From Octopus vulgaris (taxonomy: Eukaryota): a stretch of 64,000 bases of DNA. The stretch covers positions 104,904,001 through 104,968,000 of the forward strand of contig OX597820.1 of NCBI GenBank assembly GCA_951406725.2. Reading direction: 5' to 3'. Shown here in pieces: positions 2,731 to 59,739 of this stretch. Position numbers and translations under genes: made by a program. Position 1 is the stretch's first letter, and every line of letters starts with the position of its first letter. Below the pieces are notes generated by a model, which saw only the letters and a program-made list of their open reading frames with translations, was not told where the DNA came from and ran no database searches.

Positions 2731-4223
2731 GCATGTGTACGTGTGTATATATACTCTTTCATCGACATCGTTCAAATTCCCGTAGTTAAAATGCCGTTAT
2801 ACATATGAATCAAAACCGGAAATTATTCAAGCTATAAGTTTTCAGTTTGTAGATGTATAATACAATAACACTACCTTTGATATGTGAGGAAAATGAGACA
2901 TATCTAGTTAAATAACATAAGCAAAATATGTCTTCAGAACAGATCCTTTCTTCATACGTATAACCTTATGATAGTCGTCAACAAGGAAAATATGAGGCAC
3001 ATACCTTGCACCTATATCCGTATTTCTTTTCCTCGATTCCAGTTCTTCTTTTTTTGTTTTAGATTGTTAGAATTCCGTTTGCTTGTTATAATATATCGCT
3101 GTGATTATGAAATCCGCTCAATCTAGAGAATGTTGCCAGGATCTTCGGTGGTCATACGATATCACCATCTCAGTCGGATTCTTTGTTAAACAGAAATCAA
3201 TCAATTTTGAGGTCTTTGAAAATGGGTTACCTCCCTTTAAAGTATTGCAACAACGTTGAATTTACAAAGAAAGTAAATATTTAGATTAAACTGTAGAATC
3301 ACCTTACCTTGTTTATATAAATAATACTACCTACAACGAACAATCACAGTAATATCAACGACCTTGTCTTGTAATCTAAGCCATTAAATTACCGAGTCCT
3401 AACACCAGTGCACAGGAAAGGCTAATTTCTATATGGATTACCAAAAGGGACATTATTGTTCGAGTGTCATGGCTTCTGAGATATGTACAGAACCACAAAT
3501 TTGTGGAGCAGAAAGCTGGATTTTATATTAATTTAATGCTTGATTGGTTATAGGTACTTATTTTACCGACTCCGGAAGAATGATAGTTGCTTTTTGTAGG
3601 ATTCGATCTCAGATTATAAAGGAATGCAACTAAATACTGCAATGCATTTTCCAGACCCTCAACCAGTTCAAATGCAGCATTCTTTACCACATCATAAATG
3701 ACACCATGCCACTCAATTTGAGATGCAACATTCAATTTTTTTCTTGAACCCAAAATTACATCATATTAATGGTATATAAGTGGACAAAATAAAGAATAAA
3801 ATATTTTGGTCGAAGATCGAGGACAGAGGCCACAAATAGTAGTATAAGGTGTCAAGGACTTCTTGTGGTTTTAATAAATGACAACGAAACATCAATAATA
3901 ATAATAATCCTTTCTACTAAATTTTGGGGAAGGGGACTAGTCAGTATTTGACTAGTGCTTAATTTATCCACCCCGAAAGGATACAAGACAAAGTCGACCT
4001 CGGCGGAATTTGAACCCAGAACGAGGTACCGCTAAGCATTTTGCCCGGCGTGCTGACGTCTCTGCCTGCTCGCCACCTTCAAATTTTTCCACAATTTGGT
4101 GGGAGGGAATTAGTCGATTATATCAGCCCTCAATGTTTCACTGGTACTTTTTTTATCGACCCCGGAAGGATGAAAAGAATTTGAACTCAGAACATAGCGA
4201 CGGGCGAAATACTGCCAAGCATT

Positions 4224-4645
4224 GAATCTTTTCGGTTTGACCGGCAGTTTTTTAAAATAATTTCCACGTAACTAAACACTTTTAAACTTCGTATACTGGT
4301 AGAATGTGTTTATAAAACATCTTTTTCTCTTGGCTTTATTGAGAAAATTCTATAGTTTGTAAGGTATTTGTAGTTTTTTTTCTGCAATTTCAACCAATCA
4401 ATGACGTCTATTGAGGTGAAAACATTCGGTGCCGTATGAATATGTCCCTCGTTTAAGAAACAGATTGGGTTTATTTACATTTCTGAAGAAAAAATATACC
4501 CTTCCCCCACCTCTAACCCTAACCCTAACCCTAACTAACTCTAAAACAGATTGAAATGCAATAGATCGATACTAGGGTCATAATTATGGGTGACAATTTC
4601 ATATGACACCGCTAGAAAAAACTGCCGTTCAAACCGAAAAGATCC
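4224..4645 (+). mobile_element. MITE with ~28-bp TIRs and internal (CCCTAA)n, inserted in a family A SINE
   Basis: TIRs g(a)atcttttcggtttgaccggcagttttt / aaaaactgccgttcaaaccgaaaagatcc. 8-bp TSD CAAGCATT (4216-4223, 4646-4653). A second copy lies at 21162-21598. Confidence 0.9.
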
Positions 4646-4690
4646 CAAGCATTTTGTCTAGCGTGCTAACGATTCTGCCAGCTCGCTGCC

Positions 4691-4749
<59 letters not shown>

Positions 4750-4999
4750 CCTTTCTACTGGAAGCAGAAGGCCTCAAATTTGGAGGAAGAGATTAAGTCA
4801 ATTACATCGACTCCAGTGCATAACTGGTACTTAATTTATCGACCCCCCCCCCTAAAAAAGGATGAAAGGCAAGGTCGACCCCAGCGGCATTTGAACACAG
4901 AACCTGAAGACAGACGAAGTACTGCTATGCTTTTCGCCCGGCGTGCTAACGATTCTGCCAGCTCACCGCTTTAATATTAACAACAACAACAACAACAAC

Positions 5000-5058
<59 letters not shown>

Positions 5059-5061
<3 letters not shown>

Positions 5062-5553
5062 TTGCCCTGTTTCAGTACCAGGCAGTGGCTTTCATGCCTT
5101 CTCATCTTAACTGATTGGAAGTGTGTTCATGTACATTGTTTTATCTTGGTATAAATGATGGGCTACAGCAAATATTCTGCTCAATACCACCGTTGTTTGA
5201 CCATAACCAGTTGAGCATGTCGCTTAGTGGCTGACGATATGTACATCTCTGATCATGAGTAGAAGTAGTAAGGGAGCATCGTAGCCATGTGTTGTGAGGA
5301 ATTCTTTGGGATTTGGATAATTCCCCTCTAGAGCGGGATGGGCTACTCAACCAGAAGAAAATTCTAATTGGGCCCCACCTGCAAGGTCATGTGCTGTTTA
5401 TCTTGATATAAGGTCACCATGTCGCGCACATATGGTTGTGATGCATGTGCCTGGTGTACCCTTATTAGACGGGTAGTCATGATGGGTATACTGGGCTTCG
5501 TATATTTGTACCCCAGTGTCACTTTGATGGCATGCACTGCTCTTTCACTCAGT
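5059..5553 (+). repeat. Dispersed repeat family C, embedded in (AAT)n
   Basis: Highly similar to 13551-13997 and to 14038-14105 plus 15342-15721. All copies are flanked by (AAT)n and end gcactgctctctcactc. Confidence 0.85.
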
Positions 5554-5565
5554 AATAATAATAAT

Positions 5566-8500
5566 GATTTCTTTATTAACCACATAGAGCTTATATGTAT
5601 TTTAATAAAAGCATTGTGGACAACACAGGACAATACAATGTGTGGTTACATAAAATTCATGTAAACTATGAAAAACTAAATAATCGAATATAACAACAAA
5701 ATTCCCCAAGAGTGGGAAACCTCCTAGGACCGCTCGTGAAACCCCCACAAGTTCACAACAGTCCTGACCACCAGGGTAAGTGCCCTTTCCACTTTGTCTA
5801 CAGGCGCATGCTTAGAGTAGGCCCATTCACTCGGGCCATTCTTGCAACATTCACCCTCCTTTTAACAAAATTGCTTGGAGGCAGCACTTCCCTATCTACA
5901 CTCACTTTCCTTTTCAAGTGTAACTTGAAAACGTTGATGAGAACTTGACCAAAGAGGAAAATGTGTTTTCAGCCTTTTCAATCTGATCCACCTCACAACC
6001 TCTTTCGCTAAGGCCATCAAGGAAAGAAAAATAGCCTGTTCCCTCCCTGCCAAAGCAAGGTGGCGGGACGCGAAATTTTTTTCCCAAAAAAGTTCCGGAC
6101 CCCAGTTATGAGCTCATTTGCATTCAGCCAATCAAAGCTCAACTATCAAACTAGTGTCCACCTGGTCACGAAAATACTCTGGTTGAGTTCAATGGAAAAT
6201 GTGCGTTATAACAAAATCCAACTGTTCTAAACGGGTTAATAGGGATGACAAATGTAAAGTTTAGTGTATAAAGAGAATGGAGAGCTGTTCACCGACAATG
6301 CCATAAGTGTTGCCAATTTGCGTAATTTACGAGAAAATATGTGTGTAATTTCGTAATTTTCTGATTGATTTTTGTACACTCCTCATTTAAAATGTTTATG
6401 TTGATCTGGAAACATCGTAATCAATGGCGTTGTGTCGTATTGCACCCTCTTTGCATATATCCGTGGGTACATGCAGTATCAATAATCTCAGTCTGAGCAT
6501 AGGTACCTAATGGTAGCTCCATATAGAGATGGTGCTCAATTGATCTATGAGGACGGTGGGGAAATGTGCTTATGTGAGACCTGCTATGCTGTACTCACAC
6601 AGTGACATACACCATTCTATGCCTGACTGTTTGTACTGTAGTAGTACACGGTATGTGAATTTTCCAGGTGAGCTCTGATTGGCTGTATGCAAATGAGTTC
6701 ATTACTGAGGTCAGGAACTCTCGTGGGAAAAAAAATTTCGCCGGCGGGACTATCCTCACGATGGACTTAGACGATAGCTGGATCCTACACGCGACAGCAG
6801 GTGTTCGACATAAACCCACAACTCAGAAATACTCAAGCACTGGACGAGAGCGTGCAGAACGGTTTCGTCACTCTGCGCGCATCTCAGGCAAGCCCGGCTG
6901 ACTGCACTTCCGTGTTGTAGAGTTTATCTCGAACAGGTAGTGCTCCCCGTAGCACTACCAGGCCAAGGATTTCTGGAAATTATCCATAAGCACCGTCCCG
7001 AAAGTTCTCCAGAACAGACCACCCAACTCGTTCTTGTCGACGTCCAGTGTCTCCCTGAGAGCATCGTCGCACTTACCCGCCACTGACCCTCTATAGAACG
7101 CCATAGTGGAATTTCCACCGACCACATTGCCCCACTGACAGGGGAGTGTGAGCGCCTGACGATATATTAGGTGCCAGGCGCCTTTCCTCGGTCAATGCTT
7201 GATCCAGGACTGTAGCTCAGTCAAAGAGACAAGCTGTGAGAAAACGCATTTGACAAACGGCGACCACATCTGCTCACCATCTAGGAAGCGCTGGAGATAC
7301 TGCAGCCTGAAGGAATGTCTACGCATCAATAGCCACAGTATGCCTAGCCCTCCATATAGCAGGTGTTGACAGCAAATGGAGATCCTGACCAGTGGAACGC
7401 GTTCTTTCCACAGAAAGCGGAATAGTAGGCGATCCAGTTTGGTCAGACTCGAACCGGGACAGAGCATGACGGTCAGGCAATAGTAGATGACGGATGCGAT
7501 GTAAACATTCACCACCCCACCCGACCTTTCAAGGATAGCTTTCTCTCAGCCCATTTCTGGATGAGATTAGCCACTCTGCTCGCTACCTCGTCCCAGTTCT
7601 TCTCCACCTGGAGATCTAGACCGAACAAGACCCCGAGCAATTTAACAGGTCCTTGCGTTCAGCGTCCACGATGTTGTTGGAAGGCATGGACCTGCATCTT
7701 CAGGTGCCGAGTTGCAAGCCCACTGACTTCTGATTAATTTTTGCTCCTGTCACCGCTTCGTATTCATTTAGAGCGGTACCGACCAGTTCTATGTGCTTGG
7801 TGTGCGACACTGTGACGGTGATGTCTGCGTATGCCGACACGGTTCTCTCACATCCTAGGTCGCGCTGGATGCCTCTCAACGCCTCCAATTTCCGCAGTAG
7901 TGTCTCTAGAGCCATCACATATAGAAGAGACGAGAGGGGACACCCTTGATGGACCGAACGCATAATGCTGAATGATTCCGATATGTAACCATTCACCCGA
8001 ACTACCGAGTAGATGTCGTTGTACATTGCTGCGATCCAGCCACAGAAACCAGCTGCCGTGAGGACGGCCACCAAGTATTGGTGGTTGACCCTATCAAAAG
8101 CTTTAGACTGATCCAAATTGATCAACACCCCACCCATGCCAGCTTCATTCCCCGCCCTGTCTGTGATGTGTCGCATGAGGTGGAAGCTGTCGTGGATGGA
8201 TATGCTTGGGATGGTGCATGTTTGCGCATCATCAGTCAGTTCCTCGACGACAAGCGCCAACCTCTTCGCTAACATCTTGGTCAAAATTTTGAAGTCTGCG
8301 TTTAGCAGCGTTATGGCCCGAAAATTTTCTATTTGATCCCACTTGTTTGGGTCATTTCTCGGCTCACAGAACTAGAAATTCGCCCGTTCTCTTGCCAGGT
8401 GCGGTAGATATCTGCTAAGAGGTCGCCAAACAAGTCTGTCATGTGATAGTAAAGCACGTAGAGCAGACCATCCAAACCAGGCGATTTTCGCCCCGTGTAG

Positions 8501-8570
8501 CCCTTCATTGTTGTCCATCATTTCTTGACATGTTGAGGCTCTTCCACTCAGGCTCATCGAGCGGCTTGAA
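5566..8570 (-). mobile_element. Tx1-like (L1 group) LINE, 5'-truncated copy: RT, Zn-finger and 3' UTR; degenerate
   Basis: SPGLDGL, LDQSKAFDRVNH, VHQGCPLSSLLY, SAYAD, FRFLWK..PLV motifs. Ends in AATAAA plus an (ATT)n tail. Multiple stops and frameshifts. Confidence 0.9.
6070..6741. mobile_element. MITE with ~80-bp TIRs and 9-bp TSD (Mutator-like), inserted in Tx1 ORF2
   Basis: TIRs gcgaaattttttttccc...ctcatttgcattcagccaatca / tgattggctgtatgcaaatgag...gggaaaaaaaatttcgc. Flanks TGGCGGGAC / CGGCGGGAC. Removing it restores the LINE frame RIVPPPCFGREG. Confidence 0.85.
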
Positions 8571-8589
8571 TTCACTCGTTTCTTAGAGG

Positions 8590-11500
8590 AAAGCGGATAG
8601 ATTATCTTCACAATAGATTCAGCTGATAGCTGGATCCGTCCAACACTTGACAGTAGGTGTGAGGCATAAACCCATAAGTCAACAATGCTCGGGCACTGGA
8701 TGAGAGCGTGCAGAACAGTTTTGTCGCTATGCGCGCATCTCGAGCAAGCCCGGCTGACGGCATTGCCATGCCTACAGAGTTTATGCTGAACCGGCCATGC
8801 CCACCACATCTGGTAGCACAGCCAGGACAAGGATTTCTGGAAATTATCCATTGGCCCTGACCCGAAAGTCCTCCGGGACGCACCAAGCAGGTGATTCTCA
8901 TATACATCCAGAATCTCCCCGAGAACGTCGTTGCACTTGCCCGCCACTAACCCTCCAAACAACGCCAGAGCGGAACTACCCCCGACCACATTGTTCAACT
9001 GACATAAGACTGTGAGTGCTTGACGACACTCTAGATGTCAGGCGCCCTGCCTCGGTCTACGCTAGATCTAGGACTGCAGCTCGGTCAAAGAGACGAGTTG
9101 TGGAAAATCCTTGTGACAAACGGCGATTATACTTGCTCACCGTCAAGGCAGCCCGGGAGATGTCGTAGCCTAAGCGCATGTCTGCGCATCTGCAGCCACG
9201 GCATGTCCAGCTCTCCATTTAGCGGGTGTTGGCAGCAAATGGAGTGCCTGACTAGTGGAACGCATCCCCTCCACAGAAAGCGGAAGAGTGCGCGCCCCAG
9301 TTTGGATCGGACGTAAACTGGAACAAAGTAAGACGGTCAGGCGGGAATATATAATGGAGTCACCTCTGCCTGATCTTTCATGTATAGTTTTCTCTCGGTC
9401 CATTTCTGAAGGGGACTGGCCACTCTGCTTGTCATCTCGTCCCAGTTCTTCACCTGGAGGTCCAGACCGAACCAGACTCCGAACAATTTAACCGGTTCCT
9501 CCATCCAGCGTCCCACAACGTTATTGGACGACTTGGACCTGCATTTCCATGTGCCACGCTGCAGGCCCACTGACTTTTCTTGATTAATTTTTGTTCCTGT
9601 AACCGCCCCATATTCTTTTAGAAAAGTGCAAACCAGGTCTATGTGCCTGATATTCGATACTATAACGGTGACATCGTCTGCATATGCCGACACGGTTCTT
9701 CTACCTCCTAGTTCGCTCAGGCTACCTCTCAACATCTCCAATTTCCGCAGTAGTGGCTCTAAGGTCTGTACGTACAGATGTTGAATGGTTCCGATAGGTA
9801 ATCATTCACCCGAACTACCGATCAGATGTCGTTGTTCATTGCAGCGATTCACACACGGAAAACTGGACCGAAACCGGACGTCGTGAGAACAGCCGCCAAG
9901 TATTGTTGGTTGACCCTATCGAAAGTTTTAGGCCTAAAATTTTGAAGTCTGCGTTCAGCAGCGTTACGGGCCTAAAAGTTTCATCCTTCTGGTTCGGGTC
10001 TTTCCTCAGCAGTGCCACCTCTCCTCGATTCACAGAATTAGGAATTCTCCTGTTCAGCTGCCAGTTGCGGTAGATATCAGCTAAAAGGCGACCAAGCAAG
10101 TCTGCCATTTCAAAGTAAAGCTCGGAGGACAGATCATCCACACCAGGTGTTCTGCTCCCCGTGCAGCCCATCGTTGCAGCCCGTAGTTCTGCGGCTGTTA
10201 TCGGCATTTTGCAACGCTCAACTCCCTTACCGAGCGCGTTCCGGCTGCCATTCGTCCCAAACAGTTGGGCAAAATGCTGTTGATATGCCTCACACCTCAC
10301 ACTTCGGGCTTGAGTACCGTACGCTCACTTTGGTTCGCCAATGACCGAACCGTGGCTTTGTTGCTACGTTGTCCCTCTACCACTCAGACCTATCGAGCGA
10401 CTTCAGTTTCCTCGTTTCTTAGAGCACGCGCTTTGGCTCTAACAATACATCCTGCGTGCTTAGCGTTGAAGAATTGGTCCAATCTCGCCGCCAGCATGTT
10501 GGTTACGATGTCCTTCCAAAGCGCATCTTCTAAGTTTTTAACTAAGCTTCCCTCTATTCGATTCTTTTTTATTGTTAATGCCTAAACCCAGTTGATTATA
10601 CACTAATTGTCCTTTTCGGGACAAACCACCATTTGTTGTTGACAACTGACCCTGTCAACGCTCGCTTAATTAATTCGCTAATCCGGTTTCTGTAAGCTTG
10701 GCACGCTGGGAGTGACGATTCAGCTTCCAGTAACCAGATCCCTGCCTACGAAGTCTATCTAAGTCGACAGTGAAGACCATAAATTTGTGGTCTGTATAGC
10801 CGACGACTTTGAAAAGTGGGCAACGTATACTACCTTTATCTACTAGCCTACAGAATAGTCTATCTAGATACGACTTAGATGACCCGATGCGGTTCGTCGA
10901 TGTCCACAGTGGCACATTCGGCAAATCCAGTCGGTATCGGTCAGACAGTTGAAAACATTTGAGCAGGTTTGTGAGGCTTTTGCACTCCGCTCTTCTAACG
11001 GTTAGTCCCACACAATTTAAGCGTGCGTTCAACATAGTGTTCCAGTCACTCATTAGCACTAAAGGTCGAGACATTCCCAGGAAAGCCTCCAGACGTCTGA
11101 AGAAATCTGGTTGCCCTGCCCTTGTCGAAGCATAAACACCCACCAGTCTGAAGGTATCACCGTCGCTGTTGTTCACATTCAGGACCACCAACTTAAATTC
11201 AGGGTCCAGGAAGTTAGTCCTTATCTTGAGATCCAGACCTTTCCGGAATGATACTGCAGTTACACCCAACATTTGCGGTTGGCATGGAGATAAGAAAATC
11301 TCATACCCACCGATAATAGGTATGGAAGCTTGTCGGTTGGAGAGTCTGATTTCACTGATAGTCACTACATCTAAACTTAGTGACCAATGGTCATCGAGTA
11401 GGTGGCCCTGTTTCCAAGTTGACTCTATGTCACATGCATTTATACAGCCTGTCCTTAGCAAAGCCATGTTTGTTACCCTATTTCTGTGGAGAGACATATT

Positions 11501-14105: not shown

Positions 14106-15339
14106 TTAGGCTGGCAACTAAGTTCTCGCGGTTTTTTAAAATTGAAATTTTTTAAAAGGTTTAATAAAAAAAATAGCAACTAATTAATCAATAATGTATT
14201 CACCCTTGTTGTTTACAACTTCTTCCCAACGTTCTACAAAATTTTCAATACTTCGTTGGAACGAAACTCCGCGCGTAGCATTTGAAAGAGATCGAAAGAG
14301 GTGGAAATCCGTTGGTGCCAAATAAGGAGAGTACGGCGGGTGGGGCAGCACTTCCCAGCCATGCGTTTGAATGGCTTCCTTGGTCATATTGGCGATATGA
14401 GGGCAGGTGTTGTCGTGCAGCAGAAGAACTCCATGCTGACGATTAGGTCTTTTCTCTTGAATAGCCATGTTGAATCGTTCCATCTGTTGAACATAGAGTT
14501 CCGCGTTGACCGTTTGGTTCCGTTCAAGCAATTTGTAATGGATAATCCCTTCCTAGTCCCACCATACACACAACATCGTTTTACGCGGATGAAGATCTTG
14601 TTTCACGCACGGTGTCGCTTGTTTACCGGGGTTAAGCCATTCATTACACTGCTTCATATTGATGTACAGGCACCGTTTTTCGTCACCATTAACGATTCAG
14701 TAAAGAAATCGTTACTTGTGTTCATGAGTTGAGCAGTGACGAGCAAGCAAACCAACGGAGATTGTGGCTCGTTGATTTTTGTTGTTATCACTTAAAGCAT
14801 GCAGAACCCATGCCCCACACTTCTGAACCTTTCCCGTCCAGTGAAGATGCTTCTCTATAGCAGTGTGGGAGCATTCCATATTCTCTGCCAGTTCCCTTGT
14901 CGTTTGACGAGAATTTTCGTGCAAAATTTGGTTTAATCGCTCCTCGTCGAACTCAACTGGATGGCCAGAACGAGGCGCGTCTTTGAGGTCAAAATTTCCA
15001 TTTTTGAACTTGGCATACCAATCACGAGCAGTTCTTTCAGCTATGGCACCCTCTCCATACACAGCACAAATGTCGCGAGCAGCTTTTGCGGCCTTAGAAC
15101 CTTGATTAAAAGCAAAAACAGGAGGTGTCGAAAATACTCGTATTTCTTAACTTGTAATTCCATTTTAATGATCTGAAAATAAACAAACATTAACTAAAAT
15201 TAACTAGAAAAAAAACATAAACAAAATAGATTCCAAAATGATTCAAAAATAGAATTCTCGAAAAAAATAGATTTCCAAATTTAAAAACGCAATAAATTCC
15301 AAAATTTAAAAAATGGCGAGAACTTAGTTGCCAACCCAA
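14106..15339 (-). mobile_element. Near full-length mariner (DD34D) element with pseudogenised transposase (ATG 15163 to TAA 14184)
   Basis: TIRs ttaggctggcaactaagttctcgc / gcgagaacttagttgccaacccaa with TA TSD. The empty site catgtacattgtttt is seen in family C copy 1. Motifs WVLHAL, GDEK, LLHDN, YSPYLAPTDFHLF; stops and frameshifts present. Confidence 0.96.
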
Positions 15340-19269: not shown

Positions 19270-20182
19270 GAAAATCAATAAGGTCAATGGCAAAAAAATT
19301 TCGTGTGTCAGAAAAAACAGTCAGAAATATTGTGCATAAAGATATCAGATACAAATCTTATGTGATGAGAAGAGGTCAATTCATGTAAAACAAAAAAAGA
19401 AAAAGAAAGAAAGAAAGAAAGAAAGAAAGAAAAAGAAGAGAACAAAGAAGGAAAAACCGTTTAATCAGATCCAGAAAAGTTTTGAACAAACTTAAAAATC
19501 CATTAGATGGTGGGATTTGATTTTTTTCAGATGAGAAAAACTTTGTCCAGGACCAGAAAACTAATAGAAGAAATGACAGATGGTATGTACAGACCCTTCT
19601 GGGGTCCCAAGAGTAATGCACATAAAATTTCCTGCAAGTGTCATGCTTTTGGATGTTGTTAGCAATGAAGCACATTTGATGCTTCCTCACTTTGTCCCAC
19701 AAGGCCTTAGGGTGGATACTGCTGCGTATGTTGAGTTTCTGGATAAAGTTGTGATCAACAGTGCATGCAATGGAAGGCCTTATGCCTTTCAACAAGATTT
19801 TGCAGCATCACACAAGGCTCAAATGACACAAGAATGGATGGCTGACAATTTGCATGATAACATCACCCCCAACATTTGACCTCCTAATTCTCCAGATCTC
19901 AATCCACTGGACTACTATGTATGGTGCATCGTTGAGAAAAATGTCGTAGTTCGAATCATGTCCGATATGAACAAGGATCACTTAATCTGAGCTTGTAAAC
20001 TATTTCGACCCCACGTAGAAGCAGTTACTGATGCTTGTGGTGGTTTTATTGAATGAAATTGTTAAATAGATAATTTCGCTTAATGTCTATGTTATTTTTA
20101 TAAAAATACAGTTTTTTTTTCTGTTATTACATAAGCGTTTTTTTTTAAACCATAAATCTATCCTCAAATACCGTTCGCACCC

Positions 20183-32329: not shown

Positions 32330-32608
32330 ATCACGTGACCGACCAGACCATCAGATGTTGTTACACATCGCTGGTCACAATGCGTTCGCATTGTTTTAGC
32401 CTTCGAATGACGCCACCCCGCTGGGAAGGTTTACGAAAATAAACAAAAGACAAAGGCAGGTGGAGTACAAACAAACAAATGTATTAGTATAGCGCTCAGG
32501 AATAGAAATAGAAAAAGTCTTTTACGTTTCGAGCCTACGCTCTTCGACAGAAAGATACTCAGAAAAAAACAAGGAGAGAAAAAGTGCGTGTAGGAGCTAA
32601 CGATCTAA
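32323..32608 (-). mobile_element. Penelope 3'/pseudo-LTR fragment, inverted relative to the copy at 37503-37608
   Basis: 32502-32608 is the reverse complement of 37503-37608 and includes the hammerhead-like ctgtcgaagagcgtaggctcgaaacgta. Confidence 0.75.
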
Positions 32609-34592
32609 CAATCGAGTGGCAAAAAAGGGGCCTTCCACATGCTCATATCCTGCTTTGGCTCTCAGCGAAGATCAATTCCAATGACATCGACAACATAATC
32701 TCTGCAGAGCTTCCTGATCCAGCTTTAGACAAAGAACTATACGAAATAGTTAAAGCAAACATGGTACATAGTCCATGTGGGCGTGGATTCAACATAAACT
32801 CACCATGCTTGAAGGACAGCATATGTTCAAAAAGATTTCCAAGGAGGTTCCTACAAGAAACTCAGACAGGTGCTGATGGGTATCCATCATACAGACGCAG
32901 AAAACCAGAAGACGGAGGCTTCACAGCAACTATCGGACAGCACAATATTGATAATAGATGTTCCATACTGCCCACTCCTGTCAAAGACTTTCAATGCCCA
33001 CATTAACGTTGAGTTTTGCAACTCCGTTAAATCCATCAAGTACGTTTACAAATATGTAAACAAGGGTTCTGACGCTGCAATGTTTGGACTTCAACAAGAA
33101 TACTGCCAGGATGAGATGACGCATTATCAGGTGGGACGGTACATATGTAGCAACGAGGCTTTCTTGTGCATCTTTGGCTTTCCAATTCACCAACGACACC
33201 CCGCCATTCAACAGCTTGCAGTGCACCTGGAAAATGGTCAAAGAGTGTATTTCACTGATGCTAATGCTTCTCTGTTGGCAGAGGGAACCAAGGGATATCA
33301 TACTCACTGCATTCTTCAAGCTTTGTCAAGTGGATCCATTCGCTCAAACCTTGCTGTATCCACAGATTCCACCGTACTACACTTGGAATGGGAAAAAATG
33401 GGCCCCACGGAAAGCAGGTCAAAATGTTCATGGATACCTTGGCATTAAGTTTTACACTTGCCTTGGGCGAGTATACACAGTGCATCCCACTCAACAAGAG
33501 TGCTTCTACCTTCGTCTACTACTGCATGAGATCAGAGAGCCAACGTGTTTCCAGGTCCTAAAAACCGTTCGTGGAGAGAAGACTGCTATCGACAAGGTCT
33601 GTTAGAAGATGGTGTACAATGGGATGCAACTTTAGGAGAGGCTGCTTTATCACAATCACCAAAAAGTCTCAGGGCACTATTTGCAGTATTACTACAGGCA
33701 TGCGAACTGTGTGATCCGGCCAAATATAGAGACAACCTGGCTGAAGACTTTCAGCGCCAAGCTTAACTGCTCTATCCTGACATGGAGGGTATCAGCAATG
33801 AAATCTATAACAAAACACTCATTGACATTGAAGACAGGATTGCTAAACTGGGTGGAAATGAATTGTCGACGTATGGCCTGCCACAAGCATTCAGGTCAGG
33901 GTCAAATAACCTTCCCACTTCTGTCATTCGTGAAACAACCTACGACACTCAAGCGCTTTCAAAGTACATTGTTGAAAATAAGCCTAAGTTACTTCAAGTC
34001 TGTCGATACAATTCCAGATATAAATGAAGTTGTGAACTATCCTCCTGAATTTCTCAACTCACTGGAGCCTCCTGGACTACCTCCACACATATTAGCACTT
34101 AAAGTTGGAACTCCTGTAATGCTACTCCGCAAGACTTTGCAATGGAACACGACTGGTGATAAAGAAAATGATGTCACACGTTATCGAGGCGATCATTCTT
34201 TCTGGATGTGGAAAAGGTGATGACGTCTTTATCCCAAGAATTCCTCTTACTCCATCAGGAGCAGAAATTCCATTTACATTCAGAAGACTGCGATTCCCCC
34301 TTCGTGTCAGCTTTGCCATGTCCATTAACAAATCTTAGGGTCAAACCCACTCTGTAGCTGGTCTTCTCTTGGAAGAGCCCTGCTTCTCGCATGGGCAACT
34401 TTATGTTGGCTGCTCAAGAGTAGGAACCTTTTTGTATATGCTCCACAATGAAAAACAAAGGAACATTATTTACAACGAGGTGTTATAATCTCAACAGCCA
34501 GGAGGTATATACATGATCCCCTTTTTTTTAACAAACTTCATTTACTTTCATGTATTTATATTAATATACATATATATATATGTGTGTGTGTG

Positions 34593-46222: not shown

Positions 46223-46389
46223 TTATGTATACCATGGCCTTTTACGGATCCATCTGATGGTGTAGCCAGAGTCAACACGGATCTTGATTGATGCAGCCTC
46301 TGCAGCACGCACAGTTTCTTTGACTGACTGCATAAGGTTCTGAGCATTACCGACTAACATCTCTGTTGCATCTTGGTCTTCTTGAGAAC
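46223..46389 (-). CDS. VCL: Vinculin last coding exon (helix 5 and C-terminal extension) with TAA stop
   Basis: ctattttccag|GT TCT CAA... translates (G)[54 protein letters not shown]. This frame is not in the ORF track; read manually. Confidence 0.97.
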
Positions 46390-47052: not shown

Positions 47053-48263
47053 TTGAGTCTCCCATAAATAATGCAGTATTTTATACTTTTTATTTTTCAA
47101 AATTAAGATAAATGAAGTTCTTTTTTAATCTAAAATATACTCTCCTTTTTCCACAATGCTCTTCCATTTATCTGGTAGACTTGCAAGGCCCCTCTTCCAG
47201 AATTCACTTGTCCATGATAAAAAATACTTCTCCAGCACTGTTCTGACCTTGTCTACAGAATTCATATTTTTTCCATCTAAATGATTTTGAAGACTGCAGA
47301 ATAAATGATAATCAAATGGTGTATTGTCCAGTGAATATGGTAGGTGGGTTATTGTTTCCCATTCCAACTACTCCAGCCTTTGGAATGTCATCCTCACTGT
47401 ATGTGGCCAAGCATTATCCTGATGGAAGAACACCTTCCGTCTTGAAACTAAAGATGGTCATTTTTCTTCTAGCGCTTGCAGTAGATCACCTTTGTTATCA
47501 TTTGGTTTGAGTTTAAAAATTCGAAGTTGATTAAACCTTTCATAACCCACCAAACAGATAACACCATCTTACATAGGTGAAGACCTGTAGCCTGGAGTGC
47601 CGGTGTTTCTCCTTTCCCTACCCACTGTCTTCAGACATCTTTATAGAGACTCATTTCTCGTCACCAATCATTATTCAGTCCAAAAAAAGTTCATTCGTGA
47701 GACGTGACAGCAAAGAAAGGCACACATTCACTCTCTGCATGTGATTAGATTCAGAAAGTTTGTGAGGGACCCATTGACTCAATTTTCCGACTTTTCCGAT
47801 GTTACACAGGTGTCGATGAATGGTTGACTGACCGAATCCAAGCTTCTCTGCTAGTTCTTCAAAAGTTACGATGGAATTTTATTTCACTAGGGTTTGCAGG
47901 ACTTCCTCATTGAGGTCTACAGATGAGGTTTGTCTTCTAGGCTGTAGTTTCTGGCTCAGAATTTATGGAACCACTGTTGACACTGGCTTCCATTTATTGT
48001 CCATTCCACATATACTACATTAATATTCCTCACACTTTCCATTGCATTGTTGCCTTTATTGAACTCATAAAGCAAAATAAGCCAAATAATATGCTCCTTT
48101 GTCATTCCCATTACAGATTTGAAAAAAAAAAATAACTTAAAATCGAACAGTACTCTTCAAAACTTGCACTAAGAATAACAAGTTGATGCAGGAAGTGTAT
48201 CCCATCCCTCTCTGACTCTTAGTTCATGCAATTGAAAATCACATTATTTATGGTATGACCCAA
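47053..48263 (-). mobile_element. Degenerate full-length mariner in the last vinculin intron
   Basis: Imperfect TIRs ttgagtctcccataaataatg / cattatttatggtatgacccaa, TA-flanked. Motifs WVPHKL, IGDEK, HLPYSLDNTPFDYHLFCSLQNHL..GEYILD. Confidence 0.9.
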
Positions 48264-49863
48264 TACATTTGCTATACCTTCATTTACATTCATATAACTA
48301 CTGGATTTTTAATTTACTCTGGATGGTTGATGTAAGAGACAGTAATAAAATAAAACATGAATATAAGCAAGAAGTTTATTGTAAAAACAAAATACACATT
48401 TTGTACATTCTCTTTTTATGAGAGACTGGGAAGCTATCGGTCATTCAGCAAGAAAATGTAAAAACTCTCACTTCAATTTTACTGTTTGCTAATAATATAA
48501 ATAATTTTTTCAACTAAAAGCACAAAACTTGAAATTTTTGGGGAGGATGTAAGTCGATTACAAAGGGATGAAAGGCAAAAACGACCTCAACGGACTTTAA
48601 ACTCAGAATGTAAAGACAGACAAAATGCTGCTAAGCATTTTGCCTGGTGTGCTGACAATTCTGCCAGCTCACCACTTTAATAATAATAATGATCCTTTCC
48701 ACAATAGGCATAAGACCTGAAATTTCGGGAGGGGGGGGGGGATTAATTACATTGACCCTAGTACTTACCTTATGTTTATTTTCTAGCCCTCAGAAATGAT
48801 AAAAGGCAGAGTGAATCAATACTCTGTGAACTCAGAATGTAAAGGTATACAACTAAATAGGCATTTCATTGACCACTGTACCAATCCTGCCATAATAATT
48901 TCTTACAGAGATGTAAAGCTACCAATTCTGGGAATAAAGTTAGTCAAGTGACTCCAACGCTAGTACTATATTTTATCAATCCAATTTAGGATCAAATATT
49001 GAATTCTAATATGAGCACAAAGCACCAAATTTCACAGAGAGAATAACAAGACAAAAAGCAAAATTAAAGCTGGTAGAGTTAAACATAAAGGGAGATAACC
49101 GAATTACTCCAACGCATTTTGTCAGACTGTCTACAATTCACACAATATCATTCATTTATCTGATTTGATTTGAAAATATGGAAGTAACTATACAAAATAT
49201 AAAATTCATTATAAATAAATAGATAAGTAAAAATAAAAATAGCTGATCTCAATGCAACATTTAATGTGCAAAACAGACAACTACATATTTTACCATCTGC
49301 CTTGAACTCTCATCATTGTTGTAGTGCACCTGAGCACTGTACACAATGTTTATTATTATTATTATTATCATGAACAGGAAGGAAGTCTAAATACTCAAAC
49401 TTTGGGGAAAAAGAATGCCAGAAACTAAGATATTCTAAATGGGTTCAAATACTAAATGCTGTTAATAAATCTAACAAGGGAAGATATCTTGGGGGAGAAA
49501 AAAAGGAGGGTGGGATTAAATAAAATATTTGGCTAGGAACAAGCTATACACATCAATTCTTAATAAAGGTGGTAGGTTTCTCATCAAAATAAGCATCATG
49601 GAATAAAACAAGCTAAACAATTTAAAACTAAAGAAAACAAAATTTTGTAAAAAGACAAAAGAATATGGATTATATCAATCAAATATAGATATATTTAGCA
49701 TTTTATTTTTATTTTTCGAATATGTTTCAATTTCTTGAGGTTAGGGGACAGGAGGAAACAGGTGGGCAAAAGTTCATGCCTTTCCGTAAGGGCTTAGCAG
49801 AACGAGAGCAGCAAAACCGCTTATGACAAGGCACCAAGCCAAGCCGTAACAGATCCAGCTTAC

Positions 49864-49875
49864 CCACAGCCAAAC
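49864..49875 (-). CDS. VCL: Candidate 12-nt microexon of vinculin (adds GLAV)
   Basis: ttatttccctttacacccttttctttctcgaaaTGCtttgtcgtaaag|GTTTGGCTGTGG|gtaagc: pyrimidine tract, then TGC, then AG, with a strong donor. Frame-preserving. GCATG at 49775-49779 downstream. Confidence 0.65.
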
Positions 49876-50396
49876 CTTTACGACAAAGCATTTCGAGAAA
49901 GAAAAGGGTGTAAAGGGAAATAACTCTTTTCTTTCTTTTTTGATTTATTTCATCAGTAAATTGTTATGAAAGTGATTCAAGACCCAAGAGCTTTACGGAA
50001 GCATTTACCGAAATAACGAAATTCTCATTCCTCGAGTCACTTTTCTAACTTTTCTCCAATCATAAATGTAATTAAAAAAAAAAAGAAGGTATATAATTTT
50101 AATATTTCTAATCAGCAGAAAGTTGAGTTCTATTTCTTGTTTGTTTTCCCAAACCTTTGTGTGTGTGTATCAAACTCTCTCTCTATAAAGTCAATTATAT
50201 ATATGAGGCAAAATAAGGATAGGATTGCATGCAGTTGGGTGGTGTGAACAAAGTAATGTGGTGAAGGTTTCACAGGCATGTAACACCCTCGCACAAACCC
50301 CAACTCTTTTTCAAATCAGAAAAATAAATAAATAAATAAACTCATTAAAAAAAAAAAATAACTGCAAACTGTTCAGCATGCATCAACAGTACTTAC

Positions 50397-50402
50397 TTGA
50401 TT
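50397..50402 (-). CDS. VCL: Candidate 6-nt microexon of vinculin (AATCAA)
   Basis: gatcacag|AATCAA|gtaagt with a perfect donor. About 75 nt free of AG upstream, containing branch-like TTAAC (50442-50446) and two TGC motifs. TGCATG at 50377-50382 and 50228-50233 downstream. Frame-preserving in phase 1. Confidence 0.55.
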
Positions 50403-52408
50403 CTGTGATCCCCAAGCGGCAGTGAATATAAACGGCAAAGTGTTAATAGCAAGAAATTATGGCAACATCACAATGATATCTTAAGTGTGTGTATGTAGCA
50501 TTTTTTTTTTTTTGCTTTTTTGCTTTTGTAAAAGATATTTGATTAAACAGACTGTTGCCCAAGTCAAGAAACAAAAAAGGATGATTAAACTGTTTTATTA
50601 CACACATACACACTCATAGAATTTTGGAGTTGTTCTGTTTTCTTTTTAATCAAACACTGTATGTAAAGTAGTGGCTTTCAACCATTTTTTGCCTTTGATT
50701 CCTATTTTACTCAGATGAATCCTTATAGCCATCCAGTATTTAAAATATTCTGTTATATTTTTTTATAATTAGATATTATTAGGAATTGTATTTAAAAAAA
50801 AAAAATGAAACTATTTTGTGTATTGTAGAAGTATAAATAATTTATCTGCACATAAACTTTAACAACAAAATCTTATATGGACTCCCAATGGTCATATGAA
50901 CTCTTGAGGATCCAAAACCGCTAAAGCAATAATAATCACTGTGTGTCTGAGAGAGGGGAAGAGGAATCAGGTCTTACAAAAATGTAATTCAGAGAAGTTA
51001 CTGTTCATTGAGAAATAACATAGTAACATGTAAATAGTTGTTTCTCATTTAGGCACAAGGCTAACAATTTTTAGGGTAGGCAGTTTGTCAGTATTACTGA
51101 CCCCAGTACTTGACTGGTACTTTATTTTATTGACCTCAGAAGGACAAATGGCAAAGTTGACCTTTACATGATTTCAACTTAGAATTAACATATGATAAAA
51201 CTCTAAAGAGATGAAAGCACAAAGCTGGCCCTAACAAGATTTGATATATATTGTGATCTCCAGTTCATTTTTTTTTAAATATATAGTTTGCTTCAGCCTT
51301 ATTTTAAGTTCACCACTGAAAGTATTTAAAAGAATAGAACCAATGAAAGTGTCCACTTATGGTCCAACAACATGCCAGAAATAACAAACCAAATCTCTCC
51401 CTCTAATCATACTTCTATCTAAGAAAAAAAGACATCAAAAAATGTTGTGTTCAAATTGTGTCATGCCAAGAGGTCATGAGTGGAATATTTTTGAACATCA
51501 GTTGCCTCAGTCAGAGCTAACCTGGGGCTAAATAACAGCTAAAATCTTATTTTTTTTATCTTGAATTATAGTTAATATTTGAGGAAAATAACTAATTAAA
51601 GTGGAGAGTGACAGAACAGTTGTGTTGTCGAATATAGAAGAAATGTAAATTTAAATAATAATTCTCATAACAAAAAGTAAAATGCATTTAGAATCACTAT
51701 ACATAGTGAATAAGGAACTATAATTCATATAATTGTGTGAGCTAATGCAATATACCTTGTACAAGTAAGTATACAAATTAAAGTATCTGGAATAAGTAAA
51801 CTGACAAATATACCTTTAGTCTCTCTAGAATATATATATATATATATAAGATTCAGTTGAATTAGGTACTTAAGTTGAGGAACCAAGTCAGTCCGATATT
51901 GTCTCTGCACAGCTCGAAGTTAGGTGAATAAAAAGCAAATAAGTAACAAGAATGTTCAGGTATTAGTGCATTCTTTTATTCTCTAGTTCTGATGAAAGAT
52001 TTGCTATAAAATTATAATGGGGTATCCTATATGTTGAAAACCTGTATGGTCTTATTTCAAATTGATGTAATGCTTGCATTGATTAATAAAATGGAGCCGC
52101 TTGAAATGGCCATAATGCACTAATTCCTGGACATCCTTGTTACTTATTTGCTTCATATATATATATATATATATATATACTCAAAATAAGCAACAAGAAT
52201 AACTTCGGTTGCTTATTTTGATTATAATCACCCCATGGAATTTATATGGATAACACCATACAAAATTCTGGTGCATCTAACTTAAGTACCATATTCATTT
52301 GAATCTAAATTTTGCTGAACTTATTTGTATATATATATATATATAGTGTTCTTTATTTTTTATGCCCTATAAATTCCATATCATTTCCAGTAATTTGGTA
52401 TGTATGTA

Positions 52409-53123: not shown

Positions 53124-53162
53124 CACAGGCAATCTCGCTACCATCAGGTGCTGGAATTGGCT
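53124..53162 (-). CDS. VCL: Candidate 39-nt alternative cassette exon of vinculin (adds EPIPAPDGSEIAC)
   Basis: atttgattctccag|AGCCAATTCCAGCACCTGATGGTAGCGAGATTGCCTGTG|gtaatt. Symmetric phase 1-1, open frame, coding-like GC content in an AT-rich intron. TGCATG 30 nt downstream (53088-53093). Confidence 0.75.
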
Positions 53163-55231: not shown

Positions 55232-55869
55232 CTTTCGTTCTTTTACTTGTTTCAGTCATTTGACTGCATTCATCCTGGAACACCACCTTGAGGGGTTTTA
55301 GTCAAACAAATCAAACCCAGAATTTATTTTTAAGCCAAGTGCTTATTCTATCAGTCTCTTTTGCTGAACTACAAAGTTACAGGGATGTAAACACACCAAC
55401 ACCGGTTGTCAAGTCTTGATGGAGGGGGGGAACAAACAAACACAAAGACACACACACACACACACACACATATATATGTATCTATGTATATATACATGAC
55501 GGGTTTCTTTCAGTTTCTGTCTACCAAATCCACTCACAAGGCTTTAGTCAGCCCAAGACTATAGTAGAAGACACTTGCCACACAGTGGGACTGAACCCAG
55601 AACAATGCAGTTGTTAAGCAAGCATCTTACCATGTGGTTGGTATAGAAGCTATTTACCACACAGCCACAACTAGAAGAAACATGGAATGTTCATGGCTGG
55701 AATGTTTCAGTTTACTCAGAGCTGAGCTGGGATTAAACAACAACCAAATGATGTTGATGGTGATAATCATAATGACAAGAATCACAATTCCATTGAACCA
55801 TAAAGAGAAAAGTGATCCGGTCTGTGAGATATTTTATAGTGTCATTCAAACCTCAAGCAAAGCTTGAAC

Positions 55870-57977: not shown

Positions 57978-58304
57978 TTATTCAATGAATTCTTTTTTAA
58001 TACAGTATGGTATGATTTTTAGTAGATTTGGCTGCTATTTCTAACCAGTTAAGCAGCTGATCAGTATTTTTGATACAATGAGCAAATATTCTAAATTGGT
58101 GTGTGTGTGTATACATATACACACACACACACACATATATAACATATATATATATACACACACACATACATACACACACATACCAGTTTAAAGTATTTGC
58201 TCATCATATCAAAAATATGGATCAGTTGCTTAACTGGCTAGAAATAGCAGCCAAATCTACTGAAAACCATACCCTGCTGTATTAAAAAAGAATGCATTGA
58301 ATAA
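57978..58304. repeat. Intronic inverted repeat, ~130-bp arms (~15 mismatches), CA/TG/TA spacer
   Basis: Manual alignment of 57978-58108 against the reverse complement of 58174-58304. Confidence 0.92.
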
Positions 58305-58406: not shown

Positions 58407-58691
<285 letters not shown>

Positions 58692-59615: not shown

Positions 59616-59739
59616 AGTTCTCATTCTCTTGTCAGTACATTCAAGGGCAAGGATCTTCGCTAACCGGGTCACTTCTTCTGAGGCCTCAGCTATAGCTTTA
59701 GCAGTTGCAATCAAATCTTTCTTGCTTCCACCTTCACCT
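59616..59739 (-). CDS. VCL: Vinculin internal coding exon (tail domain, helix 3 region), phase 2 to 0
   Basis: Translates (R)[41 protein letters not shown], matching the invertebrate vinculin tail. Acceptor ttttgttcatccaccag, donor ACT|gtaagc. 124 nt = 1 nt + 41 codons. Confidence 0.96.

What the first reader, a model, noticed from the sequence alone, without database searches (positions are those of the whole stretch)
49775..49925. 12-nt microexon with eMIC/SRRM4-type architecture
Seen: long pyrimidine tract, then gaaaUGCuuugucguaaag, the 12-nt exon, GUAAGC, and GCAUG about 85 nt downstream. The surrounding ~250 nt is non-repetitive and CpG-rich compared with the rest of the intron. Established: UGC between the pyrimidine tract and the AG is the hallmark of neural microexons activated by eMIC-domain SRRM3/4 (Srrm234) proteins, and downstream GCAUG is an Rbfox enhancer. 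Inference: neural-specific inclusion of GLAV.
Basis: partly seen in the sequence, partly recalled or inferred. Interest (0 to 1): 0.75.

Follow-up and report, generated by a model that had tools for sequence, protein, structure and literature searches.

The report
Hairpin-locked vinculin microexon in octopus
An intron of the octopus vinculin gene holds a likely 12-base mini-exon with nerve-type splice signals that is predicted to be folded shut in an RNA hairpin, where RNA editing would be able to switch it off; no spliced copy has yet been seen.

Summary
The gene is vinculin of an Octopus (minus strand). The 12-nt candidate (49875-49864) has UGC at -15, a 46-nt AG-free zone, an 86% pyrimidine tract and a GTAAGC donor. 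In 308 kb scanned, the motif filter hit only this site and a 6-nt microexon 530 nt upstream. That 6-nt exon and a 39-nt exon in the same intron are annotated and conserved in other animals. The genome encodes a switchable eMIC Srrm234.

New here: a predicted sense-strand hairpin (-47.8 kcal/mol, z -3.9) encloses UGC, acceptor, exon and donor. A second hairpin buries the pyrimidine tract.

Not shown: inclusion. It is in 0 of 195 parsed vinculin junctions, three RNA runs of unknown tissue show only forms without it, and no homologue was found outside octopus. Neural specificity and editing are untested.

Verdict: probably a real, lineage-restricted eMIC-type microexon held off by RNA structure, possibly gated by editing. 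The scan had not noted this site before.

The parts
46223..46389 (-). Vinculin last coding exon (tail helix 5 and C-terminal arm, to stop)
   Evidence: 100% identical to Octopus vinculin proteins; matches solved vinculin tails at residues 1014-1065
49776..49891 (-). Predicted hairpin B enclosing UGC, acceptor, 12-nt exon and donor; lower stem 21 pairs with 4 G-U
   Evidence: -47.8 kcal/mol, z -3.9, 0 of 200 shuffles; opposite strand -24.5, z -1.1; core pair probabilities mostly 0.9 or more in 131- to 1001-nt contexts
49775..49779 (-).
49790..49790 (-). C lying opposite the acceptor A (A-C mismatch)
49858..49863 (-). 5' splice site GTAAGC
   Evidence: sequence
49864..49875 (-). Candidate 12-nt microexon (+4 residues, GLAV), inclusion not observed
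   Evidence: for; no inclusion or homologue seen
49876..49877 (-). Acceptor AG (AAG context); A49877 unpaired in the stem, predicted ADAR target
49888..49890 (-). UGC at -15 (eMIC-type enhancer motif)
49895..49920 (-). Pyrimidine tract with UCUC; candidate branch A at 49911 (weak YUNAY match, inferred)
49896..49936 (-). Predicted hairpin A burying the pyrimidine tract (11-12 contiguous pairs); the next upstream AG (A49925) is also in an A-C mismatch
   Evidence: -11.8 kcal/mol, z -3.4
50397..50402 (-). 6-nt microexon (+2 residues, E-S), UGC at -19, UGCAUG at +15, unstructured
   Evidence: in 7 of 10 O. sinensis models and in scallop and oyster proteins; homologues in 13 genomic loci; z +3.45
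53124..53162 (-). 39-nt optional exon (+13 residues)
   Evidence: commonest form among proteins; RNA contig joints in runs X1 and X4; homologues in 7 loci
58442..58532 (-). Upstream constitutive vinculin exon (tail helix 4)
59616..59739 (-). Vinculin exon (tail helix 3 region)

Best explanation
The site is likely a real, lineage-restricted optional microexon that would add four residues to the loop between helices 4 and 5 of the vinculin tail, and that is predicted to be held off by RNA structure. It is the third of three optional exons (39, 6 and 12 nt) in this intron. Shown: the splice signals, their rarity, the in-frame position in a loop, and a genome-encoded eMIC activator. Predicted: two sense-strand hairpins bury the pyrimidine tract and the UGC, acceptor, exon and donor, so the default is skipping. 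Inferred: eMIC-bearing Srrm234 in neurons wins a race against folding and gives partial inclusion. Also inferred: ADAR editing of the acceptor A, which sits in an A-C mismatch, would turn AG into IG and tighten the stem, so editing would push against inclusion.
For: The relaxed motif filter hits only the verified 6-nt exon and this site in 308 kb, both on the sense strand of one intron. The intron is a hotspot of optional exons in many animals. The insertion point falls in loop 108-113 between helices 88-107 and 114-152 of a predicted relative's tail (P0044, pLDDT 78). The eMIC exon pair is present with a read-through stop. The hairpin is strand-specific and stable in longer contexts. With the splice core fixed and only the downstream part shuffled, 0 of 1000 shuffles fold as well and 9 of 1000 give an A-C at the acceptor. 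Of 607 AGs in the intron, 6 sit in an A-C mismatch; 2 of the 6 are this acceptor and the next AG upstream. Reading the acceptor A as G lowers the energy from -47.8 to -54.4. Editing of the -2 A with the expected splicing change is documented in human cells (PMC5991522, sections 8 and 11).
Against: No inclusion seen: 0 of 195 parsed junctions among 354 proteins, including 19 Octopus models and 8 unnamed cephalopod-like assemblies. Runs X1 and X4 show the 39-nt form and X2 the all-skipped form. No homologue among 80 other-animal loci, though none looks cephalopod (best 93% at the last exon). No editing-type change at 49877 among the 40 difference rows shown (98 hidden); the one change shown nearby, at 49818, breaks a pair at the top of the upper helix. 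The proven 6-nt microexon is unstructured, so structure is not a general feature here. An octopus study reports that editing very rarely alters splice sites (PMC9699675 passage), though its method counts editing-generated sites. The filter was set after seeing the site.
Confidence: 0.5

Rival explanations
1. It is a plain eMIC/Rbfox neural microexon, and the hairpin is incidental or does not form during co-transcriptional splicing.
For: All 3' splice-site features are present and the activator is encoded. Other intron windows, mostly at or near simple repeats, fold as well or better: this one ranked 5th by energy and 12th by z among 398.
Against: The stem is strand-specific and involves no simple repeat. 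It arises in 0 of 1000 shuffles with the splice core fixed and pairs exactly the UGC with the GCAUG.
Confidence: 0.2
2. The conserved thing is the hairpin itself (an intronic microRNA precursor or other structured RNA, or an element acting on the 6-nt exon 530 nt upstream), and the 12-nt exon is never used.
For: Strong sense-strand hairpin. Unspliced RNA contigs span it in runs X1 and X4. No protein carries the insert. Octopuses have many lineage-specific microRNAs (PMC9699675, title and passages).
Against: No Rfam match at the site. A Drosha-type cut would give a precursor of about 90 nt with a 4-nt bulge and a loop of over 40 nt (my reading). A hairpin alone does not explain the tract, AG-free zone, UGC, in-frame length and strong donor occurring together.
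Confidence: 0.18
3. It is a neutral leftover, such as a decayed inverted repeat with chance splice-like motifs.
For: No inclusion and no homologue found. The G-U excess over A-C in the lower stem (4 to 1) is not significant. At least one relaxed-filter hit arises in 56 of 500 shuffles.
Against: Single-copy. Strict-filter hits arise in only 8 of 500 shuffles, and there is no false hit in 308 kb. It lies on the correct strand and in a known exon hotspot.
Confidence: 0.12

Closest known systems
eMIC-dependent neural microexons (SRRM3/4 in vertebrates, Srrm234 eMIC isoform in flies; PMC8797185 passages; bioRxiv 10.1101/2024.09.17.613571 passages)
   Same: 3-27 nt, frame-preserving, UGC between tract and AG, long AG-free zone, UCUC-containing tract, activator made by alternative 3' end processing
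   Different: Inclusion, tissue and dependence are unproven here. The branch point is not CUAAY. All signals are predicted to be base-paired; the passages I saw mention no such structure ('secondary structure' occurs 0 times in the 2024 preprint).
Exons whose 3' splice-site A is edited by ADAR, and exons repressed by ADAR on dsRNA (Hsiao et al. 2018, PMC5991522; abstract and sections 8 and 11 read)
   Same: Acceptor A at -2 in a duplex; editing expected to give skipping. A-C mismatch guides are used to edit acceptor As on purpose (PMC12106830 passages).
   Different: Those are human exons, enriched in Alu duplexes. Here the duplex is a short, single-copy local hairpin around a microexon, and editing is only predicted.
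Annotated invertebrate vinculin isoforms with 39-nt and 6-nt inserts in the helix 4-5 loop (NCBI models of O. sinensis, Pecten, Mizuhopecten, Crassostrea)
   Same: Same intron, same phase, same loop
   Different: The 12-nt form is in none of them and has no homologue in the other-animal loci
Vertebrate metavinculin (PMC7827843, search listing only; insert position recalled)
   Same: Optional exon that alters the vinculin tail
   Different: A much larger muscle and heart insert near the start of the tail, not a microexon in the helix 4-5 loop

Membership tests
eMIC-dependent neural microexon | Length 3-27 nt, canonical AG/GT, frame kept | tested here: met
   12 nt, phase 1 on both sides
eMIC-dependent neural microexon | UGC between pyrimidine tract and AG | tested here: met
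   TGC at -15
eMIC-dependent neural microexon | Long AG exclusion zone and upstream-shifted tract with UCUC | tested here: met
   46 nt without AG, 86% pyrimidine, TCTC at 49898-49895
eMIC-dependent neural microexon | Strong branch point (CUAAY) | tested here: inconclusive
   Only a weak YUNAY-type site at -36, read by eye
eMIC-dependent neural microexon | eMIC-bearing Srrm234 encoded in the genome | tested here: met
   PF15230 hit over cut-off; second eMIC exon about 24 kb downstream, and a read-through stop option
eMIC-dependent neural microexon | Exon is spliced into mRNA | tested here: inconclusive
   0 of 195 protein junctions; 3 of 8 run-layings informative, all without it, tissues unknown, contigs drop rare forms
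eMIC-dependent neural microexon | Neural-enriched inclusion and loss without eMIC | not testable with these tools
   Runs carry no tissue labels; needs raw reads or a minigene
eMIC-dependent neural microexon | Evolutionary conservation of exon and flanks | tested here: inconclusive
   Absent from 80 other-animal loci while the 6-nt exon is in 13; no other cephalopod intron was available
Rbfox-enhanced exon | Accessible (U)GCAUG in the downstream intron | tested here: inconclusive
   GCAUG at +85 lacks the 5' U, is 1 of 10 in the intron and is predicted paired, P about 0.9
ADAR-edited 3' splice site | Acceptor A in a duplex, opposite C, with a 3' G | tested here: met
   Predicted only: A49877 opposite C49790 between 6-bp and 8-bp stems
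ADAR-edited 3' splice site | A-to-G observed in pre-mRNA | tested here: inconclusive
   Two unspliced contigs span the site; no such row among 40 shown, 98 hidden
Intronic microRNA precursor | Match to a known family, 55-70 nt precursor, reads from both arms | tested here: inconclusive
   No Rfam match; geometry long and bulged; the microRNA sequence files of PMC9699675 could not be read

The most novel reading that the evidence does not exclude
An editing-gated neural microexon: the octopus wraps an eMIC-activated microexon in a hairpin that presents its acceptor adenosine (and the next upstream AG) to ADAR. eMIC and A-to-I editing would then act as opposing inputs on one splice site, letting editing level set vinculin tail isoforms without recoding a codon.
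Probability: 0.2. Interest if true: 0.78.

Novelty: new variant of a known kind. Interest (0 to 1): 0.5.

Why it matters
Cephalopod editing is studied mostly as codon recoding, and its effect on splicing has been called very rare from counts of editing-generated sites. Such counts cannot see an acceptor that editing destroys. This site gives a single-nucleotide, directly testable case linking the two main neural RNA-diversifying systems. The intron also carries an ancient 6-nt eMIC-type microexon without structure, a built-in control. If only the exon holds, it is a modest new lineage-specific microexon in a vinculin loop that repeatedly gains optional exons.

Tried and rejected
Run search: no holder on record as RNA and no tissue labels. 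First laying was crowded by repeats; the rows for the 12-nt region were mostly hidden. Second laying on the last exon alone (runs X7, X12, X19, X21) returned no contig on the exon, so it says nothing. Depth in bin 49816-50239 in X2 and X7 might suggest a stable intronic RNA, but part of that bin has similar sequence elsewhere in the genome, so I do not use it. An exact 23-nt search of metagenome contigs found 0. The 78-codon open frame through the exon has no protein homologue, so I reject a longer coding exon. The short-protein search (best 120 of 217 read) and cluster look-ups gave no 12-nt form; only the best 120 of 2816 long hits were read. C/D snoRNA rejected: a UGAUGA lies upstream but no CUGA follows before 49740 (read), and Rfam gave nothing. 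Literature: vinculin+microexon (25 of 33 listed), octopus+microexon+eMIC, octopus+microexon, vinculin+octopus+splicing, microexon+hairpin+ADAR and searches showed no paper on this exon in the listings. Vinculin is absent from the fly eMIC paper's text and supplement and from two preprints' main texts. The 2019 eMIC paper, which I recall covering octopus, is not held; its tables, the annotation file and PDF supplement of PMC9699675 and closed bioRxiv supplements may list this exon.

Full report
Gene context. The finding lies on the minus strand in the last coding intron of vinculin. The last exon (46389 to the stop at 46223) is 100% identical to Octopus vulgaris, O. sinensis and O. bimaculoides vinculin and matches solved vinculin tails. 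The upstream exon ends at 58442; both ends are phase 1. In a predicted tail of a relative (P0044, 19-row alignment, mean pLDDT 78) the junction falls in the loop between helices 88-107 and 114-152, so short inserts are structurally plausible.

Observation. The AG-free zone is 46 nt and the tract 86% pyrimidine. A strict filter, set after seeing the site, gave one hit in the window and hits in 2 of 300 and 8 of 500 intron shuffles, but missed the known 6-nt exon. A relaxed filter gave two hits in 308,000 bases of this genome, both strands: the 6-nt exon and this site. Shuffles reached one hit in 56 of 500 and two hits in 5 of 500. The region is single-copy at the search's sensitivity.

Other exons in the intron. 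Returned proteins show a 39-nt exon (53162-53124) and a 6-nt exon (50402-50397) in this intron. The 6-nt form is in 7 of 10 O. sinensis models, 0 of 5 O. bimaculoides and 0 of 4 O. vulgaris models, and in scallop and oyster proteins, so annotation catches such exons unevenly. From 80 metagenome loci I kept 58 regions with an AG before the last exon. Thirteen hold a 6-nt homologue with a GTAAGT donor, 10 of them with an upstream UGC, and 7 hold the 39-nt exon. No locus holds a 12-nt homologue, but none is closer than 93% at the last exon, so cephalopods are probably not sampled.

Inclusion. None of 195 parsed junctions among 354 proteins carries the 12-nt form. In RNA-type contigs, runs X1 and X4 (two studies) join upstream exon, 39-nt exon and last exon, and X2 joins the two constitutive exons directly; X7 showed no junction row. 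Tissues are unknown and contigs drop rare forms. A second laying was empty. Inclusion is therefore neither shown nor excluded.

Activator. PF15230 hits the genome once, over its cut-off. The exon can read through to a stop or splice to a second eMIC exon about 24 kb downstream. This resembles the alternative 3' end control described in flies (PMC8797185 passages).

Structure. The sense strand at 49891-49776 folds to one hairpin of -47.8 kcal/mol (z -3.9, 0 of 200 shuffles); the other strand gives -24.5 (z -1.1). Pair probabilities hold in contexts up to 1001 nt. The acceptor A49877 is unpaired opposite C49790, in an AAG context. A second hairpin (49936-49896, z -3.4) buries the pyrimidine tract, and its upstream AG (A49925) is also opposite a C. 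Of 607 AGs in the intron, 6 are in such a mismatch. With the splice core fixed and the downstream part shuffled, 0 of 1000 fold as well and 9 of 1000 give the A-C. Against: it ranks 5th by energy and 12th by z among 398 intron windows, most better ones lying at or near simple repeats. A variant in X1 and X4 at 49818 breaks a top pair, and the proven 6- and 39-nt exons are unstructured.

Mechanism. Shown: signals, rarity, frame, loop position, activator gene. Predicted: two hairpins hide the signals, giving default skipping. Inferred: eMIC-Srrm234 promotes partial neural inclusion. Inferred: ADAR, whose liking for an A-C mismatch with a 3' G I take from general knowledge and from guide designs in PMC12106830 (passages), would convert AG to IG and stabilise the stem by about 6.6 kcal/mol. 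In human cells 385 of 492 splice-site edits hit this -2 position, and splicing moved as expected in 137 of 158 exons (PMC5991522 section 8). Editing of the paired A at 49878 could instead open an acceptor 2 nt upstream and shift the frame (inference). Because editing is high in cephalopod neurons (recalled), net neural inclusion is not guaranteed. No editing was seen, but only 40 of 138 difference rows were displayed. [quoted passage not shown]

Known and new. Microexons of this layout and acceptor editing are each known. My searches listed no paper on this exon or on a hairpin-enclosed eMIC microexon; the 2019 eMIC paper was not available. The scan had no note on this place or on this idea; a note on sea-urchin vinculin concerns another exon.

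Verdict. Real exon about 0.65-0.7; structure matters about 0.5; editing gate about 0.2. New variant of a known kind, interest 0.5.

Noticed in passing
window 50397-50402 (-): Ancient 6-nt eMIC-type microexon with conserved upstream UGC and GTAAGT donor; including it brings the loop to the length seen in a vertebrate vinculin (P0001).
   Followed up: yes
window 53124-53162 (-): 39-nt optional exon conserved in molluscs and other animals; an unnamed protein with arthropod-like flanks (P0233) has a similar 13-residue insert.
   Followed up: partly
L055:7707, L058, L059:1485, L064, L066, L047:440, L051:2005: 18-nt candidate microexons in the same vinculin intron in more distant animals; L047 and the L055 group have a nearby UGC, and L055's has an AAG acceptor like the octopus 12-nt site. 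L068 is a transcript with a 17-residue insert there.
   Followed up: no
proteins P0076, P0062, P0216, P0330: Further lineage-specific inserts in the same loop: 14 residues in Haliotis rufescens, 3 residues in Mytilus.
   Followed up: no
L089 near 1570 (-), just beyond the window: A 45-nt optional, Cys/Trp-rich exon between tail helices 2 and 3, present in 12 of 29 parsed proteins.
   Followed up: partly
G000:C25:37317492 and L085 near 4380: Srrm234 eMIC domain split over two exons with a read-through stop that would give the non-eMIC form.
   Followed up: partly
window 47100-47900, 14187-15146, 19577-19876: Mariner-type transposase remnants (family recalled from the translated motifs).
   Followed up: no
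window 4000-10600 and 32500-33800: Decayed LINE reverse-transcriptase fragments and a Helitron-like helicase fragment (names recalled from the translations).
   Followed up: no
window 48544-48967, 51088-51511, 55328-55751: High-copy SINE-like repeats in the vinculin intron, very deep in RNA contigs.
   Followed up: no
window 58082-58201 (-): Another strong hairpin (-47.1 kcal/mol, z -4.8) about 240 nt after the upstream exon's donor, not at a listed tandem repeat.
   Followed up: no
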